Shown here one piece after another: positions 7,507 to 29,380 of a stretch of DNA of 64,000 bases. Every line of letters starts with the position of its first letter. The stretch's first letter is position 1. The position numbers and the translations under genes are program-made. Where the stretch lies: IMG/VR virus record IMGVR_UViG_3300023235_001725; one strand, 5' to 3'. The notes under the pieces are model-generated. The model was not told the origin of the DNA. It ran no database searches and saw nothing but the letters and a program-made list of their open reading frames with translations. The stretch is from a virus. Taxonomy: Duplodnaviria; Caudoviricetes.

Positions 7507-9834
7507 TTACTCGTAAATTGGCTGGTCAAACTCTTCCAGTAAAGTTTTTTTAATATATCCGTAAATGTCATGATATTCCATATCCATCCTCGGATACGGC
7601 ATTGATTTGTATTTCGCCATTATACGCAATAATTCAAGATTTGTGCTATGCTTTGGAACTTTTAAAAATCTAGTGTAATCAAAAGCGCAATCTGGCTCAT
7701 CGTTAAGATGTTTAATTATCTTAAATACTTTTGCTAGTGCGTTGGAGTCTTCATGGAAGTCTTCGGGTATAGAATCATAAATAGGAGTTGATTTAGGCTG
7801 TGTCCATTCTTTTTTTGCCCATTTTTTAGCAGTAAAAAAGATTTCATTTCCTTTGCTTCTATAGCTAGTTTCTTGTATTTTATGGACTTCCGAGTTTTCA
7901 CTTTTAATCGTTAACCTATTAGGATAAATTTTCTCATGTAAATCCATGCGGCTTTGTCGATATTTTGTGTTTAACCAGATTCTTCTTAAGGCTTCATTTT
8001 CTTTACAATGTTTATTATACAAAGAATATAGGTTATCTAAAGTTGTTTCCCCTTGACTTTGTGTTAGAAAATTAAACCATAAGTCAGACAGTTCTCGTGA
8101 GTACATTGTTTCGCGGGCTCTATTCTCACTTCGTCCAGAATTATCTGAAGGGATTCGATATGTTAGAATTTCAGACTGGTCATCATAATCTCCCCACCTG
8201 TCGACACGGCCTACTCTTTGAAGAGTAGCTTCTGGAGACAGGCAACTTTCAATCAAATGCCTAAAAGAAACATCTAAAGATGCCTGTGCTATTGGGCTCG
8301 CTATTACGTGTTCTTTTTCAATATTTCTGTCGGATTGCTTTCCATAGTTTTGAAGAATAACGCTTAATCGCGCTTGATTGTCGTCGTCCTCAAATTTTCC
8401 ATGAAACAAAATAGTATCTTCATTGTGTTTGTGCTTATTTCTTTGACACTCAACTATAGAATTAGAGATAAAAAGAACAGGGCTTTTTTTACTTTCAGAT
8501 ATTCTAGAACGCCCCTCTTTTGTAGTGAGTTTGTATGATTTATTGTGGACAGCAGGAGCATGTTCAAATTTTCCAGGCAAATGGGCTGTTGAGTTGTCAA
8601 ATGAATCCCAATAAACTGATAAATCAAGTGGGGTTGCGGACAGCAGTAAAGAGCGTCCGTTTGTCATCTGATGTCTTACCTTCATTAGATTTATAAAACC
8701 AGCCAGTAAAGCCCCGTCCGACACTAGCTCATGATACTCATCAAATACAACATCTGCATCGGATACCATTAATAAATCAATATCGTTACAATGCTCTTTT
8801 GTCGGACGTAAAAAGTTATCTACGTTGGTTACAATGATATCGCTTGAAAACTTTATTCCTAAATCTGAATTTGAGGCCTGTTGTTTTCCAGCGTAATATA
8901 ATTCTACTGAAGTTTCAATTCCTGCATTTTTAAGCTCTCTTAAGATGTTGTGGTACACTGATTGTGCCACAGCATTTCTTGGACACACCCAAATAAGCCG
9001 TTTATTGTTGACAGTGCTCCAAAGTAAACCTAGAAGTGTTTTTCCGTATCCAGCAGGGGCGTTGATTTGAACAGTCTTAAACGAGGTCGTCCTAGATGCT
9101 AAAGCAACTTGTTGTGTCCATCTTTTTTCATGTCCAGGATATGGGCATTTAGTAAAAGCGTAACGGTGTTGTTGAATCAGTCGTTCATTTATAGTTTTTT
9201 TAATTTCATCAACTGTAAAATCTCCTAATTCACTAACTAAGTGGTCAGCTCTTACCACGCACATGCGAATAATCGTGTTGTCAACGTTGAGGTCGCTCGT
9301 CTCGTTAAAATCTCTAATATAGTAATGAGGGCTTGATGTTTCAGCTATTCTTGGCCTATCAAGGACTTGGCCAGGAAATAATTCTTCGACGAATTCAATC
9401 ATTCTATCGATAGAATTATCTTTCTTCTTCCGAACCCACTCAAGAATAGACGCATCTGTGTGCTTGCCCATTACATTGTTAATGCCGTGATGCCAGTATA
9501 CTGCTTCAGCAACTTGTCTTAGCTCCTCTGAGTCAAAGCTGATGTACATTCTTACAAATGCCCATCCCACTTCATTGTGCGAAAAAATAATGTCTTTTTT
9601 CTTTGTTTTAGTGGATTTACCATTTAAAGAGTTTCGGAGTAAAGTTTGAAACTCGGTTTCGGCTTTTCCAATATCATGAAGAAGCGCCGCTTTGCGGATA
9701 ACTGATATAAAATGTTTTTTTTCTGTATCTGAGGTAACTATAACTGAGTCGGCAATATATTCCGCAACCTCAGCAACCTTTCGACTGTGCTCAATCAGGG
9801 TTTCGCCAGTACTTTTTGCTAATAACTCATCCAT
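7507..9834 (-). CDS. cas3: Cas3 HD nuclease-helicase, stand-alone (no Cas2 fusion)
   Basis: HD domain (LIEH, LHDIGK, WHHG, ADH) plus SF2 motifs APAGYGKT, DEYH, SATP and QRVGRVDR. Confidence 0.93.
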   Translation of the reverse strand: MDELLAKSTGETLIEHSRKVAEVAEYIADSVIVTSDTEKKHFISVIRKAALLHDIGKAETEFQTLLRNSLNGKSTKTKKKDIIFSHNEVGWAFVRMYISFDSEELRQVAEAVYWHHGINNVMGKHTDASILEWVRKKKDNSIDRMIEFVEELFPGQVLDRPRIAETSSPHYYIRDFNETSDLNVDNTIIRMCVVRADHLVSELGDFTVDEIKKTINERLIQQHRYAFTKCPYPGHEKRWTQQVALASRTTSFKTVQINAPAGYGKTLLGLLWSTVNNKRLIWVCPRNAVAQSVYHNILRELKNAGIETSVELYYAGKQQASNSDLGIKFSSDIIVTNVDNFLRPTKEHCNDIDLLMVSDADVVFDEYHELVSDGALLAGFINLMKVRHQMTNGRSLLLSATPLDLSVYWDSFDNSTAHLPGKFEHAPAVHNKSYKLTTKEGRSRISESKKSPVLFISNSIVECQRNKHKHNEDTILFHGKFEDDDNQARLSVILQNYGKQSDRNIEKEHVIASPIAQASLDVSFRHLIESCLSPEATLQRVGRVDRWGDYDDQSEILTYRIPSDNSGRSENRARETMYSRELSDLWFNFLTQSQGETTLDNLYSLYNKHCKENEALRRIWLNTKYRQSRMDLHEKIYPNRLTIKSENSEVHKIQETSYRSKGNEIFFTAKKWAKKEWTQPKSTPIYDSIPEDFHEDSNALAKVFKIIKHLNDEPDCAFDYTRFLKVPKHSTNLELLRIMAKYKSMPYPRMDMEYHDIYGYIKKTLLEEFDQPIYE

Positions 9835-9870
9835 AAATAAAAAGACTTTTTCATTAGCCTTGGTTTAATA

Positions 9871-9896
9871 TACGATGAATTAATAAAAAAGTTTCA
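9871..9896 (-). promoter_or_regulatory. ECF-type promoter TGAAAC-N16-CGTA upstream of cas3
   Basis: Exact 16-nt spacing; motif shared with eight other intergenic sites. Confidence 0.75.
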
Positions 9897-9907
9897 ACTA
9901 ACGTTGT

Positions 9908-21971: not shown

Positions 21972-22480
21972 TTCTTGATTCGGATTATAGCTGAGGGTAC
22001 AGTTTTGTAATCCTCAACAAATGAATAATCTGGGACCATTGTCACGGAGTAGTTCTTATCTTGAAGCCACTCACGGAATTCTTTGTGCAGTTAAGTCTCT
22101 CCAACCATCCAAAAAGGAGATGTTAAGCTTGAGATTGTTCCGCCTGGTGCAAGTTGGTCATACATGTGCATGATGTGTTTGCAATCGACATTGTCTCGAA
22201 AGTTAGGACAGGCAATGACGTAATCATATGGTGTCTGGGCTTCGAATCGGAAGAAGTCTGAGCCAACCAACTCATATTCTTTTTCTTTCAGTGTGACTCG
22301 GCATTCTTGATTAAGTTCTACACAGTCAATTTTACACTGTTGGAATTTTTCTTGAACCCCGTCCGCCAATACTCCTGTGCCTGCAGATGGTTCTAGTATT
22401 CTCGCTCCAGGCTTCGGGTTTAATCTCTCACATAAAGCATCAATCACCACTTGGGGTGTAATTCTGTTTGTCTCTACCAT
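21968..22480 (-). CDS. Small DNA methyltransferase-like protein interrupted by an in-frame TAA at 22091-22093 (read-through or pseudogene)
   Basis: ILEPSAGTG motif; NPPF degenerated to CPNF. After the TAA the frame continues LHKEFREWLQDKNYSVTMVPDYSFVEDYKTVPSAIIRIKK and ends in an ATGA overlap with the next gene. Confidence 0.7.
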
Positions 22481-22502
22481 AGCTTTCGTTTTTTTTATTG
22501 TT

Positions 22503-22593
22503 TGGTGAACGGAATAGGAATCGAACCTACAACTTTTCTTATGGCCGCTAAGCCATCTAGTTTTGCGCCTTCCATCCTTTTAAGTACTCGTTC
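22503..22593 (-). ncRNA. tRNA-like RNA with an aberrant anticodon region; encoded CCA
   Basis: Acceptor GAACGAG/TCCGTTC-ACCA and T arm GTAGG-TTCGATT-CCTAT. The middle (ATGGC-TTAGCG-GCCAT plus extra nt) does not fold as a canonical anticodon arm. Confidence 0.55.
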
Positions 22594-22634
22594 GAACATT
22601 TCCTTAAAAATCTTGGTGCAATCCGCCCATGTTG

Positions 22635-22686
22635 TGGCGTGGGGAGAAACGAATCTCACGCGAATCTTCTTTCAGATTCTCACGCC
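22635..22686 (-). ncRNA. Mini tRNA-mimic, family 1, copy a
   Basis: GGCGTG-A-GAATCT/AGATTC-GC-GTGAGA-TTCGTT-TCTCCC-CACGCC-A. Confidence 0.7.
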
Positions 22687-22746
22687 ATGTGGGGGAAGTT
22701 GTTTATGAGAACAGCGCCTCCCCAAGCATCTCACTGCTCATTATAA

Positions 22747-22913
22747 TGGTCCCGCGAGAGGGTTCTGCCCCCCATCATTTCTTCAACATCAACTACTAAC
22801 TCACTCTTGTGGCCACGCAAGTGAGTTTTTGTGTTTGCATCCCGAACTGAGTCCTTTCGGTTCGTCTTCCACATTATCAGTGTGGTGCTTTAACATATCT
22901 AAGCTATCGCAGG
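22747..22913 (-). tRNA. tRNA-Ile(GAT)-like with a ~90-nt insertion between the variable loop and T arm
   Basis: Acceptor CCTGCGA/TCGCGGG-ACCA; CCACA-CTGATAA-TGTGG; insert at about 22774-22863; non-canonical T loop GCAGAA. Confidence 0.6.
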
Positions 22914-22919
22914 AAATTG

Positions 22920-23062
22920 TCCTGGAGGAAGGGCTCGAACCCCCGACCCCCACCGTTCGATTCCAATTCTCTACTTCACAACCCTTGTGGCCACGCAGGT
23001 TGCGTTTCAATCCTTTTCCTCATTTATCAGGGTGGTGCTCTAACCAACTGAGCTACTCCAGG
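22920..23062 (-). tRNA. tRNA-Ile(GAT) with a 69-nt insertion in the anticodon loop
   Basis: CCTGGAG-TA-GCTC-AGTTGGTTA-GAGC-A-CCACC-CTGATAA-[22955-23023]-GGTGG-GGGTC-GGGGG-TTCGAGC-CCTTC-CTCCAGG-A. Confidence 0.8.
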
Positions 23063-23065
23063 AAG

Positions 23066-23111
23066 TGCCGCTAACAGGAATCTCACCTATTCTAGTGCTA
23101 ATGCAAGCGGC
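23066..23111 (-). ncRNA. Mini tRNA-mimic, family 2, copy a
   Basis: GCCGCT-TGCATTAGCACTAG-AATAGG-TGAGATT-CCTGTT-AGCGGC-A. Confidence 0.7.
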
Positions 23112-23112
23112 G

Positions 23113-23192
23113 TGGTGGTGAGGGAAGGACTTGAACCTTCGACCTCCAGGGTTTTAAAGCCTGGTGCTCTGAACCAACTGAGCTACCTCACC
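23113..23192 (-). tRNA. Short-V-loop tRNA with a 9-nt anticodon loop CTTTAAAAC (central TAA); encoded CCA
   Basis: GGTGAGG...CCAGG-CTTTAAAAC-CCTGG-AGGTC-GAAGG-TTCAAGT-CCTTC-CCTCACC-ACCA. Confidence 0.8.
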
Positions 23193-23195
23193 AAG

Positions 23196-23241
23196 AGGCC
23201 CCAGGAAGACTTTCTCTTCCTCTAGTGCTAATGCAGGGGCC
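23196..23241 (-). ncRNA. Mini tRNA-mimic, family 2, copy b
   Basis: GGCCCC-TGCATTAGCACTAG-AGGAAG-AGAAAGT-CTTCCT-GGGGCC-T. Confidence 0.7.
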
Positions 23242-23242
23242 G

Positions 23243-23296
23243 TGGTGGCGTGGGAAGAAACGAATCTCCCGCGAATCCCTAATGGACTCTCACGCC
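23243..23296 (-). ncRNA. Mini tRNA-mimic, family 1, copy b; encoded CCA
   Basis: GGCGTG-A-GAGTCC/GGATTC-GC-GGGAGA-TTCGTT-TCTTCC-CACGCC-ACCA. Confidence 0.72.
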
Positions 23297-23332
23297 TTTT
23301 TTAAATTCCAACACGTCAATGAACTTTTGTTG

Positions 23333-23406
23333 TGACAGGAGAAAGATTCGAACTCTCGTCCCCAGGTTTTTAAGGCCTGGTGCTCTAACCGCTGAGCTAT
23401 CCCGTC
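23333..23406 (-). tRNA. Short-V-loop tRNA with a 9-nt anticodon loop CCTTAAAAA (central TAA)
   Basis: GACGGGA...CCAGG-CCTTAAAAA-CCTGG-GGAC-GAGAG-TTCGAAT-CTTTC-TCCTGTC-A. Confidence 0.8.
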
Positions 23407-23455
23407 TGGTGGCGGATTCAGGACTTTAACCTGAACTGGTGCTTATGCATCCGCC
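23407..23455 (-). ncRNA. Mini tRNA-mimic, family 2, copy c; encoded CCA
   Basis: GGCGGA-TGCATAAGCACCAG-TTCAGG-TTAAAGT-CCTGAA-TCCGCC-ACCA. Confidence 0.72.
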
Positions 23456-23459
23456 GTAG

Positions 23460-23506
23460 TGGTGCGGGGACAATCGAATGTCCCATGAGCCAAAAGCTCT
23501 CGCACC
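23460..23506 (-). ncRNA. Mini tRNA-mimic, family 1, copy c
   Basis: GGTGCG-A-GAGC/GCTC-AT-GGGACA-TTCGAT-TGTCCC-CGCACC-A. Confidence 0.68.
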
Positions 23507-23527: not shown

Positions 23528-23947
23528 TCATGCGGCTTCTTTACAATTACAACTCTTGAGAGTTGGTTGATTCGTAAATTCTTTGAAAGCAAGTGGTAGA
23601 CTAGATAACCAACGGGCAGATTCTTTCCCTGGTTCTACGGTAATAGACGTGAACTGGTTGTCGAGGTCAGGCTCCTGGAAGGAACTGAAATTAATACCTT
23701 TTTGCGTGAGTTTGTCTCGGAGCTCGATGAGTTCTTGCTCGTCTTTGACTGATAAGAATCCTAAATATGGATTCGATAACCATTTTTCATAAATGGCTGT
23801 GTATTCTTGATTGAATACGTGGAATGAATGCATTCCTTGAGTTGCCTGCGCTCCAGGAGCGAGGTCTCGTCTTACGACGATGTAAAGCTTTAAGTTTTTC
23901 TTCTCTGTAGAAGGGTGTACTTACTGGTTGTCTAATGCTTTTTTCAT
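23528..23947 (-). CDS. PTH2-like peptidyl-tRNA hydrolase with an in-frame TAA at codon 9 (23921-23923)
   Basis: Frame from ATG 23947: MKKALDNQ*VHPSTEKKNLKLYIVVRRDLAPGAQATQGMHS...FQEPDLDNQFTSITVEP. The conserved KLYIVVRxDL..G..A.Q..H block lies upstream of the ORF-track Met. Confidence 0.75.
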
Positions 23948-27062: not shown

Positions 27063-28583
27063 TTATTCCTTAGTTGCAAGCTCAGCAAAATCAACATAAT
27101 TGTTGATAGTGTTGATAAGCGCTCTTTTGTCGACTTCTAGATTGTCAATGACATCAAAAATCTTTTCAGAGAATCCTCTTAGCGCGAATACGTTCTTCTC
27201 TGGGAACTGCATGCTTCCGCTTGCAGCCAAGTTGAACTCGTAAACTTTACAGTCCTGAGCACCGTACTTCTTCTTGTACGCTGCAAACTGAGTTTTTGGA
27301 GTATTGTACTCCATCCACGCTTGCATGTCCGAGAAGATGAATACACGGTCGTATTTCGCCTTCATCTTAACGAAGATGTCTTGGAAGTTCGTTCCGTGAC
27401 CAACCCTGTACTTGCCAACGTTGCCGTAGCCTTGGTTTGTATCAACAATCCAGTTTGCCATACCCATTACTGAGTCATTCACGTTAACTGGAAGGTACAT
27501 TGCGTGTGTTCCAAACGACATTACATCAGCATCACTAGCCTTGGCCATCATGGCTCCAAATAGAGCTGCCACTTTATTCCTGTAAGTTTTACCTCCAGCA
27601 ATTGGGCAATCCATAGAACCTGACAGGTCAATTACGACTGCAGTGTTTCCATCAAACTTTGGAATGTTAGAACAAGCTAGGTCTACGGCGGTGTTAAGCG
27701 CTCTTTGAACTTTCTTAGACTTTGTTCCAGTCAACACTGTAATCTCGTCGAGTGCAGTGATGTATCTGAATGGAAGAATCAGTGACTTCTTAATTCTTGC
27801 CTCTGTAGTCAACAGCTCGCATGCCTTGTTAAGAACCTCGTCAGAAGCATCTTGGATGATGTTTCTAAGGTTTCTTAGAAGAGCAAACTGTCCAATCTTA
27901 CCTGACATAACCAAGTCAGACCAAGCCTCAGCTTTGTTTGCGGCTTTCTCCTCAGAGGTCTTCGCTCCCTGGCCAGCTGCGGACAGCTTAGACTCGAAAG
28001 TGTTTTCACTCTTTAGGGTTCCAGCAACAAGCTCGGCAAGTGCCTTCTCGTTTCTAGCCGTTCCTTTTGGACGAACCAAGTTTACAACGTCAACAAGCGA
28101 TACTTCATTCTTGTCTCCTCTGTACTTGGCAAGCTGGTATGCATCGAACTTTCCGAAAGCTTTCTTGAAACCTTTCTTTAGCGCGTTTGGCAAAGATGCT
28201 TTCTTACCCTCTCTACCGAAGTAGTAGGACATAATCTCAGTCATGTCGTCTGGACGACGTACAATAGCTGCGTAAAACTCTTTAGCCCAGGCCTTACCTG
28301 AGGCGTGCTTAGCGATTTCACCCGCAAGTACGTGGGTGATAGAACGCATTCCAAACTCGTTACGGGCATAGACAGCCGCCTTTGCTGCGAACTCTGGGTC
28401 CACTTTGCTAAGAACGGATGTCAACTCCTTTATTTGGTCTCCTGCCTTCGAATAGAAGTCATCAGACACAAACGAGTTCAACAGAATCGTCACAAGCTCT
28501 AACTCTGGAGTCGACTTATAAGCCTCTCCTCCCGCTTTGTTGGTAGTCATTTCTACCTTTGATTTTTCGTTAAATTTTGACAT
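27063..28583 (-). CDS. Ro60-related TROVE-domain RNA-binding protein with C-terminal vWA domain
   Basis: NKAGGEAY, AKAAVYARNEFGMRS, ALLRNLRN, LPFRY and VVIDLSGSM motifs; start moved to MSKFN. Confidence 0.92.
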   Translation of the reverse strand: MSKFNEKSKVEMTTNKAGGEAYKSTPELELVTILLNSFVSDDFYSKAGDQIKELTSVLSKVDPEFAAKAAVYARNEFGMRSITHVLAGEIAKHASGKAWAKEFYAAIVRRPDDMTEIMSYYFGREGKKASLPNALKKGFKKAFGKFDAYQLAKYRGDKNEVSLVDVVNLVRPKGTARNEKALAELVAGTLKSENTFESKLSAAGQGAKTSEEKAANKAEAWSDLVMSGKIGQFALLRNLRNIIQDASDEVLNKACELLTTEARIKKSLILPFRYITALDEITVLTGTKSKKVQRALNTAVDLACSNIPKFDGNTAVVIDLSGSMDCPIAGGKTYRNKVAALFGAMMAKASDADVMSFGTHAMYLPVNVNDSVMGMANWIVDTNQGYGNVGKYRVGHGTNFQDIFVKMKAKYDRVFIFSDMQAWMEYNTPKTQFAAYKKKYGAQDCKVYEFNLAASGSMQFPEKNVFALRGFSEKIFDVIDNLEVDKRALINTINNYVDFAELATKE

Positions 28584-28686
28584 CTCGTCGTTGTTTATAA
28601 TTGTTGTTATTCTATTAATTCTTTGTTTTTGGCGCATAAAAAAAAAGCACCACATCTTTGCAGAGGGTGCTTTTTCGAAAAATATA

Positions 28687-29125
28687 ATGCCTTGGTCGGG
28701 TAATCCTGGAGAGAGTGGTTTTTCTATTTGTAGTTGAAGTAACTCATCTCCTTAACACCGTAAGGCAAATAACTGTTCGAGGTAAAATAGAGGGGGGTGA
28801 TAAGGTTGAAAGTTCTTTCTCTTTCGGTCATACGGTCTACCGTAATCGTGATTGTACTGTTCCAATCCGTCACCAGCTCATTAATGGCTGAAAATCCAAG
28901 TCTATCCTTGGTGTCTGGGTTTCTGTTTATGGTCTTTTCGAAACGGTCTTTCGACTATTCCAAAAAAGCCTGTTTGCTTGTTTGTTTATAGTTGAAGTAA
29001 CCCCTAGGAAACGTCAAAAACGTTCACACCTCTCAACACTCTGAAAGTCGTAAACTCTTGGTATATTTTGGAAAAAAATTGTTAAATGTGGAAATGAAGT
29101 AACTCTCTTTACCATTCTTACCTTA
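28687..29125 (-). ncRNA. Three candidate structured RNAs sharing GTTACTTCA in the TROVE leader
   Basis: Plus-strand TGAAGTAAC at about 28735, 28993 and 29095, each in a putative bulged stem; sigma-A -7 box TATATTTG at 29222-29229. Confidence 0.45.
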
Positions 29126-29380
29126 AGTTGTATTTCAATATGGCAATCGGAACCGTTGTTCCTACCAGTGAAATTAAATAGGGACAAATTTTAGAAACTC
29201 GTCTCTCGTTCAATCGCTCTGCAAATATAATTATGTTTTTGGAAACCACAAGCATAATTGCAAAAAAAATATACTTTTCTTATAACTATCTGACTATTAG
29301 GGTTAAAAGATTACAGCGGTGGAATAATTTATGAGTCTTTAGATATTATCGTTATAGATTCATATTTATAGAAAAGAAAA

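What the first reader, a model, noticed from the sequence alone, without database searches (positions are those of the whole stretch)
22747..23062. Two adjacent tRNA-Ile(GAU) genes carry insertions at different positions that share a covarying hairpin
One has 69 nt in the anticodon loop (22955-23023); the other has about 90 nt between V loop and T arm. Both inserts contain the invariant 14-mer TGCGTGGCCACAAG, closed by compensatory stems (CACT/AGTG vs AACC/GGTT). The loop holds the palindrome GTGGCCAC, a possible kissing-loop or protein site. The same changes are synonymous in a T-C-V-A-T-R-V frame, so a tmRNA-like coded peptide cannot be excluded. The inserts are far too short for group I or II introns. 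Options: a new mini-intron removed by a nuclease plus the phage RNA ligase, tRNA-scaffolded aptamers or decoys, or a tiny tRNA-targeting mobile element.
Basis: partly seen in the sequence, partly recalled or inferred. Interest (0 to 1): 0.75.

Follow-up and report, generated by a model that had tools for sequence, protein, structure and literature searches.

The report
Hairpin-carrying tRNA-Ile look-alikes in phage
A giant salt-lake phage and at least seven relatives carry two neighbouring tRNA-Ile-like genes that each hold the same conserved folded RNA arm; they most likely work as stable adaptor or decoy RNAs and not as decoders, though a new kind of tRNA splicing is not excluded.

Summary
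Gene 1 (22920-23062, minus strand) is a canonical tRNA-Ile(GAU) body with a 69-nt insert between the anticodon loop and the 3' strand of the anticodon stem. Gene 2 (22747-22913, minus strand) has an intact anticodon arm and a roughly 90-nt variable arm.

Both carry one homologous module: a covarying 6-7-bp helix under a loop tipped by GUGGCCAC. I found the gene pair in seven other distinct phage lineages, always syntenic and exactly two module copies per locus. Covariation supports every helix. C32-U36 (CUGAU) and the GGCC tip never change, while positions 37/38 of gene 2 do.

The insert core is as conserved as the universal tRNA loops. I found no bulge-helix-bulge splice motif, no ribozyme match, no extra copies and no protein-like pattern of change. 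No match appeared in Rfam, in the phage record collection, in the viral and metagenome contig collections, or in the bacterial and archaeal species genomes.

My reading (about 0.45): stable tRNA-scaffolded adaptor or decoy RNAs. A spliced mini-intron remains possible (about 0.2). The mobile-element and coded-peptide readings are not supported. The same stretch was also noted in an overlapping window of this scan and in two other genome records that hold the identical sequence.

The parts
22920..23062 (-). Gene 1: tRNA-Ile(GAU)-like RNA of 143 nt. It has canonical acceptor, D and T arms, discriminator A, and no encoded CCA.
   Evidence: Rfam tRNA model 49.9 bits. ARAGORN -i calls tRNA-Ile(gat) with a 69-nt insert. 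Over 8 orthologs, 95.7% of cells are paired and 21 of 38 pairs show compensatory change.
23024..23035 (-). Gene 1: 5' strand of the anticodon stem (23031-23035) and the loop CUGAUAA (23024-23030).
   Evidence: The stem pairs with 22950-22954 across the insert. It is 100% paired in 8 orthologs, and 4 of 5 pairs are compensatory. CUGAU is invariant.
22955..23023 (-). Gene 1: the 69-nt insert. It forms a long irregular arm that continues the anticodon stem. A 4-bp helix (23019-23022 with 22958-22961) and a 2-bp helix are followed by the module.
   Evidence: The proximal helices are 81-88% paired, with compensatory changes.
22970..23010 (-). The module in gene 1. It consists of a short basal helix, an asymmetric purine-rich internal loop (GAAAC opposite GAAGUA; the first residue of the 3' side varies, and AGUA is kept in most copies), a 7-bp helix (22997-23003 with 22978-22984), and the tip GUGGCCAC (22987-22994).
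   Evidence: Over 17 copies the helix is 100% paired, with 5 of 6 pairs compensatory, and the covariation score is 0.753 against 0.275 for shuffles (0 of 500 reach it). The covariance model scores it 67.8 bits.
22747..22913 (-). Gene 2: tRNA-Ile(GAU)-like RNA of 167 nt. It has an intact anticodon arm (22869-22885), a D loop without GG, a non-canonical T loop, a giant variable arm, and encoded ACCA (22747-22750).
   Evidence: Single-sequence fold. Alignment folds of 5 and 6 orthologs show 5 of 7 acceptor pairs compensatory, and the basal helix of the variable arm covaries.
22853..22860 (-). Gene 2: an invariant CC-GAAA-GG mini-hairpin (a GNRA tetraloop) at the start of the variable region.
   Evidence: Invariant in 6 of 6 orthologs of this subtype.
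22781..22842 (-). The module in gene 2: helix 22820-22826 with 22799-22805, and the tip GUGGCCAC at 22809-22816.
   Evidence: Covariance model 66.3 bits; pair counts.
22692..22733 (-). A conserved H-type pseudoknot directly 3' of gene 2, preceded by the invariant UUAUAAU. It may belong to the maturation of gene 2 or to the next transcript.
   Evidence: Over 6 orthologs, 100% of cells are paired and 9 of 12 pairs are compensatory.

Best explanation
The two genes encode stable tRNA-scaffolded RNAs that are not ordinary decoders.

Inferred route: they are transcribed as part of the dense run of aberrant tRNA-like genes that follows the Pth2-like gene. The host tRNA-end enzymes then release them, because each keeps a covarying 7-bp acceptor stem and a tRNA-like body.

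Each RNA then shows two recognition surfaces. One is the invariant C32-U36 stretch (CUGAU, the Ile anticodon with U33). The other is a rigid arm tipped by a GGCC tetraloop on a 2-bp stem, sitting above a purine-rich internal loop. So the RNA would act as a two-sided adaptor or decoy. It looks like tRNA-Ile to some tRNA-Ile-specific factor (a synthetase, a toxin or a nuclease), while the arm binds a second partner or keeps the RNA off the ribosome.

Shown here: the fold, its conservation, and the restriction to two copies per locus. Inferred: processing, stability, lack of decoding, and the identity of both partners.
For: (1) The pair is conserved and syntenic in 8 distinct lineages whose flanking proteins are only 65-86% identical.

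(2) Every helix covaries, including the long-range anticodon stem of gene 1.

(3) The unpaired core of the insert is 0.90 identical among 7 orthologs. That matches the universal tRNA loops (0.89) and exceeds the tRNA stems (0.72). The insert sequence itself is therefore under selection.

(4) The same module sits in two geometries, coaxial with the anticodon stem in gene 1 and as a variable arm in gene 2. This fits a module that works independently of the tRNA body.

(5) In gene 2, positions 37/38 vary (AA, AC, GU, UU, UA) and include U37, while C32-U36 never change. Gene 2 of this window, L125, L127 and L145 lacks the D-loop GG and the T-loop UU. These are not the constraints on a decoding tRNA-Ile.

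(6) In L122 and L124, gene 2 carries an extra hairpin of about 20 nt in its anticodon loop. Disrupting the loop is therefore tolerated.

(7) All copies begin C1-G72, C2-G71, which from my own knowledge is unusual for bacterial elongator tRNAs.

(8) The neighbouring genes are also non-decoding tRNA look-alikes, next to a Pth2-like gene, a methyltransferase and Ro60.
Against: Gene 1 without its insert is a flawless tRNA-Ile(GAU), and the insert lies at the classical intron site. That is exactly what an intron-bearing functional gene looks like.

No binding partner is identified. No RNA data could be obtained, so accumulation of the full-length RNAs is not shown.

In L148 the insert of gene 1 has diverged in sequence except for the GGCC-tipped hairpin. 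The strict sequence constraint is therefore not universal.
Confidence: 0.45

Rival explanations
1. Spliced mini-intron. The 69-nt arm of gene 1, and the small anticodon-loop hairpin of gene 2 in L122 and L124, would be cut out by a phage or host nuclease. The halves would then be joined by the phage RNA-repair ligase to give a working tRNA-Ile(GAU). The module would be an intron-borne RNA in gene 1 and a permanent variable-arm tag in gene 2.
For: The body of gene 1 is fully canonical and scores 49.9 bits despite the insert. The insert sits at position 37/38-38/39, the canonical intron site. The anticodon GAU is invariant in all 16 full-length genes. A second, unrelated insert lies at the same site in gene 2 of L122 and L124.
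Against: There is no bulge-helix-bulge motif. The 4-bp helix next to the anticodon stem is flanked by 8 nt on one side and 2-3 nt on the other, and cutting there would not restore a 7-nt loop.

Rfam gives no group I, group II or small-ribozyme match at E up to 10. The ORFs I scanned in this 64-kb window, most of those of 170 aa or more plus the smaller genes beside the array, gave no splicing endonuclease or RNA ligase. From my own knowledge, protein-dependent tRNA splicing is unknown in Bacteria.

The insert core is as conserved as the tRNA loops. Gene 2 keeps the same module where it could not be spliced out without destroying the tRNA.
Confidence: 0.2
2. Partners of the phage Ro60. The two RNAs would be Y-RNA-like tethers, circularly permuted relative to YrlA, and their arm would bind the Ro60 protein encoded 4 kb away.
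For: Ro60 (TROVE plus vWA domains) lies at 27063-28655(-), and L122 has the same synteny. Y RNAs are modular tRNA mimics encoded near Ro60 (PMC4201824). Near-matches to the GNCGAAN0-1G motif lie on the 3' strand of the gene 1 arm (AUCGAACG, GUCGACUG).
Against: The Rfam YrlA model gives no hit on either gene. The near-motif is not conserved in L125, L147 or L148.

The leader upstream of Ro60 holds three GTTACTTCA elements. The same GUUACUUC motif opens a canonical permuted YrlA-like RNA next to a distant phage Ro60 in L116. Those are better Ro60 partners.

The covariance model of the module finds nothing near the Ro60 genes of L115 and L116.
Confidence: 0.1
3. Tiny mobile element that targets tRNA genes and inserted independently into two of them.
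For: The same module is found at two structural positions in two genes.
Against: Each of the 8 lineages has exactly two copies, always in the same two syntenic genes. With filters off, the covariance model finds nothing else in the 64-kb window above 15.3 bits, and nothing else in about 83 kb of related loci.

Pattern scans of the viral contigs, the metagenome contigs and the species genomes returned only chance or coding hits. I saw no terminal inverted repeats or target duplications.

The two genes align along their whole length, which fits a tandem duplication of a gene that already carried the insert.
Confidence: 0.03
4. tmRNA-like RNA that encodes a short peptide across the hairpin (frame T-C-V-A-T-R-V).
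For: Between the two copies in this window, the stem changes are synonymous in that frame.
Against: In relatives the flanking codons change non-conservatively. Upstream they read N-A-T, K-L-T, K-H-T, K-C-I and K-L-A, with C changing to G. Downstream R changes to K, and V-V-K, V-S, V-C and V-H all occur. Meanwhile GUGGCCACA shows no synonymous change in 16 of 17 copies.

The changes are the compensatory pairs of a helix, including G-U. ARAGORN finds no tmRNA. There is no G3-U70 pair, and the open frame has 11 codons with no start.
Confidence: 0.01

Closest known systems
Bacterial and phage Y RNAs of the YrlA type (Chen et al. 2014, PMC4201824; Rfam RF02553)
   Same: Both are modular non-coding RNAs that combine a tRNA-like body (T arm, D arm, acceptor stem) with a second protein-binding helix in place of, or beyond, the anticodon loop. 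Both are encoded within a few kb of a Ro60 gene, and both occur in phages.
   Different: The topology is the reverse. Here the RNA ends are at the acceptor stem and the arm is closed by a loop. In YrlA the ends form the Ro60-binding stem and the acceptor stem is closed by a loop. The anticodon loop sequence is kept here. The Rfam model does not match, and the GNCGAAN0-1G motif is not conserved.
Archaeal and eukaryal tRNA introns at position 37/38 (bulge-helix-bulge substrates), including introns that carry a functional small RNA (own knowledge)
   Same: The insert lies at the canonical site of an otherwise perfect tRNA. It pairs into a long helix that extends the anticodon stem, and its sequence is conserved.
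   Different: There is no bulge-helix-bulge geometry. No splicing endonuclease was found in the window. The same module also occurs in a variable arm.
Engineered tRNA scaffolds and aptamer-tagged tRNAs (PMC3753655, PMC7590224)
   Same: The design principle is the same. A foreign hairpin is grafted into the anticodon arm or the variable arm of a tRNA, so that the cell processes and stabilises it like a tRNA.
   Different: Those are laboratory constructs. This would be a natural, evolutionarily conserved counterpart with a cargo hairpin of unknown function.
Class II tRNAs with long variable arms and allo-tRNAs (PMC5389517)
   Same: In gene 2 the extra helix emerges between the anticodon arm and the T arm.
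   Different: The arm is about 90 nt long instead of up to about 25 nt. The body is Ile-like. Several lineages have non-canonical D and T loops and variable positions 37/38.

Membership tests
YrlA / bacterial Y RNA (RF02553) | A match to the family covariance model at its gathering score | tested here: not met
   No YrlA hit overlaps either gene at gathering score or at E up to 10. The weak hits of 22-30 bits span junctions between tandem tRNAs.
YrlA / bacterial Y RNA (RF02553) | Permuted order (5' Ro60 motif, V, T arm, closed acceptor stem-loop, D arm, 3' end) | tested here: not met
   Both genes have the normal tRNA order with open acceptor ends. L116 shows the permuted form for comparison.
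YrlA / bacterial Y RNA (RF02553) | A conserved GNCGAAN0-1G motif thought to bind Ro60 | tested here: not met
   Only near-matches exist, and they are not conserved across the orthologs.
YrlA / bacterial Y RNA (RF02553) | Encoded next to a Ro60 (TROVE) gene | tested here: met
   Ro60 lies at 27063-28655(-), 4 kb away, and L122 shows the same arrangement.
tRNA intron of the bulge-helix-bulge type | Two 3-nt bulges on opposite strands separated by a 4-bp helix, placed so that cutting restores a 7-nt anticodon loop | tested here: not met
   The consensus fold has 8 nt and 2-3 nt flanking the 4-bp helix, followed by a 3x3 internal loop.
Group I or group II intron, or a small self-cleaving ribozyme | A match to the conserved core, and sufficient size | tested here: not met
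   The insert is 69 nt, and no Rfam ribozyme or intron family matches at E up to 10. CUGAUAA lacks the G8 of the hammerhead core (read from the sequence).
Functional (decoding) tRNA-Ile(GAU) | A 7-nt anticodon loop with GAU and a purine, normally A, at position 37 | tested here: not met
   In gene 1 the loop is interrupted in all 8 orthologs. Gene 2 has U37 or G37 in L145-L148 and an interrupted loop in L122 and L124. The feature is met only by gene 2 of this window, L125 and L127.
Functional (decoding) tRNA-Ile(GAU) | Aminoacylation by IleRS and use on the ribosome | not testable with these tools
   This needs a charging assay or tRNA sequencing.
tmRNA | A tRNA-Ala-like domain with G3-U70, a tag reading frame, and pseudoknots | tested here: not met
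   ARAGORN finds no tmRNA. Pair 3-70 is U-G, A-U or G-C, and the frame is not conserved as protein.
Miniature mobile element | Multiple dispersed copies, terminal repeats or target duplications, and presence/absence polymorphism | tested here: not met
   There are two copies per locus in all lineages and none elsewhere. The rest of the 447-kb genome was not available to me.

The most novel reading that the evidence does not exclude
A bacteriophage runs a protein-dependent tRNA splicing pathway that is neither self-splicing nor of the bulge-helix-bulge type. A structured insert of about 69 nt at the canonical intron site of tRNA-Ile(GAU) would be recognised through its GGCC-tipped arm and cut out, and the halves would be joined by the phage's RNA-repair ligase. 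The phage would thereby hold back a cleavage-proof 'pro-tRNA' until it is needed.
Probability: 0.12. Interest if true: 0.9.

Novelty: new variant of a known kind. Interest (0 to 1): 0.62.

Why it matters
If these are stable adaptors, they are a natural version of the laboratory tRNA scaffold. They would also be a new branch of tRNA-mimic RNAs beside Y RNAs. They come with a small, very well defined hairpin whose partner could be fished out directly.

The context suggests a testable anti-defence role. The anticodon nucleotides of tRNA-Ile are invariant, and the genes sit in an operon headed by a peptidyl-tRNA-hydrolase-like gene. One candidate target is a toxin that acts on Ile-tRNA, such as the acetyltransferase ItaT (PMC6125619).

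If instead the insert is spliced, it would be the first enzyme-dependent tRNA intron in the bacterial world.

Tried and rejected
- **Collection scans with the 14-mer or stricter patterns.** Scans of the viral contigs returned only coding or chance hits, or nothing. The single metagenome scan returned 5 chance hits. The single scan of the species genomes returned 7 chance hits, none of which matches the model.
- **Sequence and family searches.** blastn and megablast against the phage record collection found only generic tRNA similarity or nothing. No Rfam family covers the module.
- **Other comparisons.** The module does not resemble the phage's own CRISPR repeat. The relatives found through Ro60 (L115, L116) lack the module. 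L096, the one 14-mer hit with a closing stem, lies in a stretch that reads like coding sequence.
- **Hammerhead reading of CUGAUAA...GAAAC.** Rejected, because G8 and the A15.1-U16.1 pair are absent.
- **Loop-E (bulged-G) reading of GAA/AGUA.** Attractive, because AGUA is kept in 14 of 17 copies. But it reads AUUA in L145 and in gene 2 of L148, and it is absent from gene 1 of L148. I keep it only as an inference.
- **'Length covariation' of the loop.** Withdrawn, because the 17 copies align essentially without gaps (a single one-base gap, in L146 gene 1).
- **RNA ligase or splicing nuclease in the window.** None found among the ORFs scanned.

Full report
**Context.** The window has a low G+C content of about 38% and is phage-like. 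Its Pth2-like protein is also recorded on a contig of 446,956 bp, so this is a very large uncultured phage. Earlier notes of this scan place it in salt lakes and suggest a Bacteroidota host.

The finding lies in a G+C-rich (0.456), gene-dense run of tRNA-like RNAs at about 22500-23460 on the minus strand. This run sits between a Pth2-like gene (23528-23833) and a small methyltransferase gene (22091-22480). It is 4 kb from a Ro60 gene with TROVE and vWA domains (27063-28655).

**The observation.**
- Gene 1 (22920-23062) matches the Rfam tRNA model end to end at 49.9 bits, with one 70-nt gap in the anticodon loop.
- Gene 2 (22747-22913) is missed by default tools. It folds with a 7-bp acceptor stem, a D arm, an intact anticodon arm with loop CUGAUAA, about 90 nt before a poor T arm, and encoded ACCA.
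- The 14-mer occurs twice in the window and nowhere else, even with 2 mismatches allowed.
- A pairwise alignment shows the two genes are homologous along their whole length, and the homologous part of the inserts is about 60 nt, not 14.

**Relatives.** DNA pattern scans of the public collections gave only chance hits. Homologs of the two flanking proteins, at 65-98% identity, led to contigs from other metagenomes.

Seven further distinct lineages carry both genes in the same order and place: L122 (identical to L123), L124, L125 (identical to L126, L142 and L143; L144 holds only the 3' part of gene 2), L127, L146, L147 and L148. L145 is cut off inside gene 2. L149 is a more distant relative in which the PTH2 and methyltransferase genes are adjacent. 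There only a degenerate Ile-like remnant is left, without the hairpin.

**Structure of the module.** Seventeen module copies align with a single one-base gap, in gene 1 of L146.
- The 6-bp core of the main helix is paired in 100% of cells, and 5 of 6 pairs change on both sides.
- The covariation score is 0.753, against 0.275 for shuffles (0 of 500 reach it) and at most 0.20 for slid registers.
- The tip is GUGGCCAC in 16 copies and AUGGCCAU in gene 1 of L148. That is a compensatory G-C to A-U change, so the tip is a 2-bp stem closing a GGCC tetraloop. GGCC and the following AA never vary.
- Between the helix and the tip lies a purine-rich internal loop (G/A, C/A).
- Below the helix is an asymmetric loop, GAAAC or AAAAC opposite NNAGUA. 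It resembles a bulged-G motif but is not universal.

**Structure of gene 1.** Over 8 orthologs, 95.7% of cells are paired and 21 of 38 pairs are compensatory. The anticodon stem that closes across the insert is 100% paired, with 4 of 5 pairs compensatory: CCACC/GGUGG, CUACU/GGUAG, CCACU/AGUGG, GCAUC/GAUGU and CCAUU/AAUGG. The insert therefore truly lies inside the anticodon loop and continues the stem as a long irregular arm.

**Structure of gene 2.** The acceptor stem covaries at 5 of 7 pairs. The anticodon arm is local, an invariant CC-GAAA-GG mini-hairpin follows, and the module sits on a covarying basal helix as a giant variable arm.

**What is and is not conserved.**
- C32-U36 (CUGAU) is invariant in all copies. 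Positions 37/38 of gene 2 read AA, AC, GU, UU or UA.
- In this window, L125, L127 and L145, gene 2 has lost the D-loop GG and the T-loop UU together. In L122 and L124 it has canonical loops but an additional hairpin of about 20 nt after A37.
- All copies begin with C1-G72 and C2-G71.
- Among 7 orthologs of gene 1, the unpaired core of the insert is 0.90 identical. The universal loops of the tRNA body score 0.89 and the tRNA stems 0.72.

**Testing the readings.**
- *Peptide.* In relatives the flanking codons change non-conservatively, while the core shows no synonymous change. The changes are helix-compensatory. Rejected.
- *Mobile element.* A covariance model of the module, run with filters off, finds the two known copies at 66-68 bits and nothing else above 15.3 bits in 64 kb. 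In about 83 kb of related and Ro60-bearing loci it finds exactly two copies per locus. Not supported.
- *Intron.* There is no bulge-helix-bulge geometry and no ribozyme or intron family match. The ORFs scanned in this window gave no ligase or splicing nuclease. However, gene 1 is a perfect tRNA-Ile once the insert is removed, and the site is the classical one.
- *Ro60 partner.* The leader of the Ro60 gene holds three GTTACTTCA elements. The same GUUACUUC motif opens a canonical permuted YrlA-like RNA beside the Ro60 gene of a distant phage (L116). Those are better candidates, and the module does not occur near the Ro60 genes of L115 and L116.

**Best reading.** These are stable tRNA-scaffolded adaptor or decoy RNAs that show both the Ile anticodon stretch and a GGCC-tipped arm.

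One concrete and testable version is a decoy or sponge for factors that act on tRNA-Ile or Ile-tRNA. It would work together with the peptidyl-tRNA-hydrolase-like gene that heads the operon. An Ile-tRNA-specific acetylating toxin is known (PMC6125619), and from my own knowledge peptidyl-tRNA hydrolase reverses such damage. This link is inference only.

I found no published description of these RNAs.

Noticed in passing
window 22692-22733 (-), with the invariant UUAUAAU at 22740-22746: A conserved H-type pseudoknot directly 3' of gene 2, with stems of 5 and 7 bp. In 6 relatives 100% of cells are paired and 9 of 12 pairs are compensatory. The invariant UUAUAAU before it reads like a -10 box. Its role is unknown; it could be a 3' trailer, a block to exonucleases, or the start of a new transcript.
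   Followed up: partly
window 1-64000: GATC occurs 0 times (218 expected) and CCGG 0 times (84 expected) in 64 kb, while GGCC, GCGC and AGCT are near expectation. Two restriction-type sites are completely avoided.
   Followed up: no
window 28680-29230 (-); L116 about 9790-9900 (+): Three GTTACTTCA elements lie in the 550-nt leader of the Ro60 gene. The last sits in a bulged stem just before the start codon. A distant Ro60 phage (L116) has a canonical permuted YrlA-like RNA that begins GGGTTACTTCGAATG right upstream of its Ro60 gene. GUUACUUC may therefore be the Ro60-binding motif of this phage group.
   Followed up: partly
window 23113-23192 (-) and 23332-23406 (-): Two tRNA genes that ARAGORN calls Leu(UAA) have 9-nt anticodon loops (CUUUAAAAC and CCUUAAAAA).
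   Followed up: no
window 22506-22593 (-): This is the last RNA of the array. It has a tRNA-like acceptor and T arm (Rfam 23.3 bits). About 32 nt replace the anticodon region, including a hairpin whose stem covaries between this window and L122, with loop UUAGCG.
   Followed up: no
L124 2071-2138 (+): A weak match to an HDV-like ribozyme (29 bits against a gathering score of 44, E 0.086) begins right at the 3' end of gene 2 in this relative, where the rest of the array is missing. HDV-like theta ribozymes are known to trim phage tRNA 3' ends (PMC10879173).
   Followed up: no
L148 2439-2460 (+): In this relative the arm of gene 1 is a perfect 22-nt palindrome, GUUUUUUAU-GGCC-AUAAAAAAC. The rest of the insert is unrelated in sequence to the other orthologs.
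   Followed up: partly
L149 1048-1200 (+): In this distant relative a Pfam-positive PTH2 gene and the methyltransferase gene are adjacent. Between them lies only a 150-nt spacer holding a degenerate tRNA-Ile-like 5' half and a T arm. Its outer pairing would overlap the ribosome-binding site of the methyltransferase gene.
   Followed up: no
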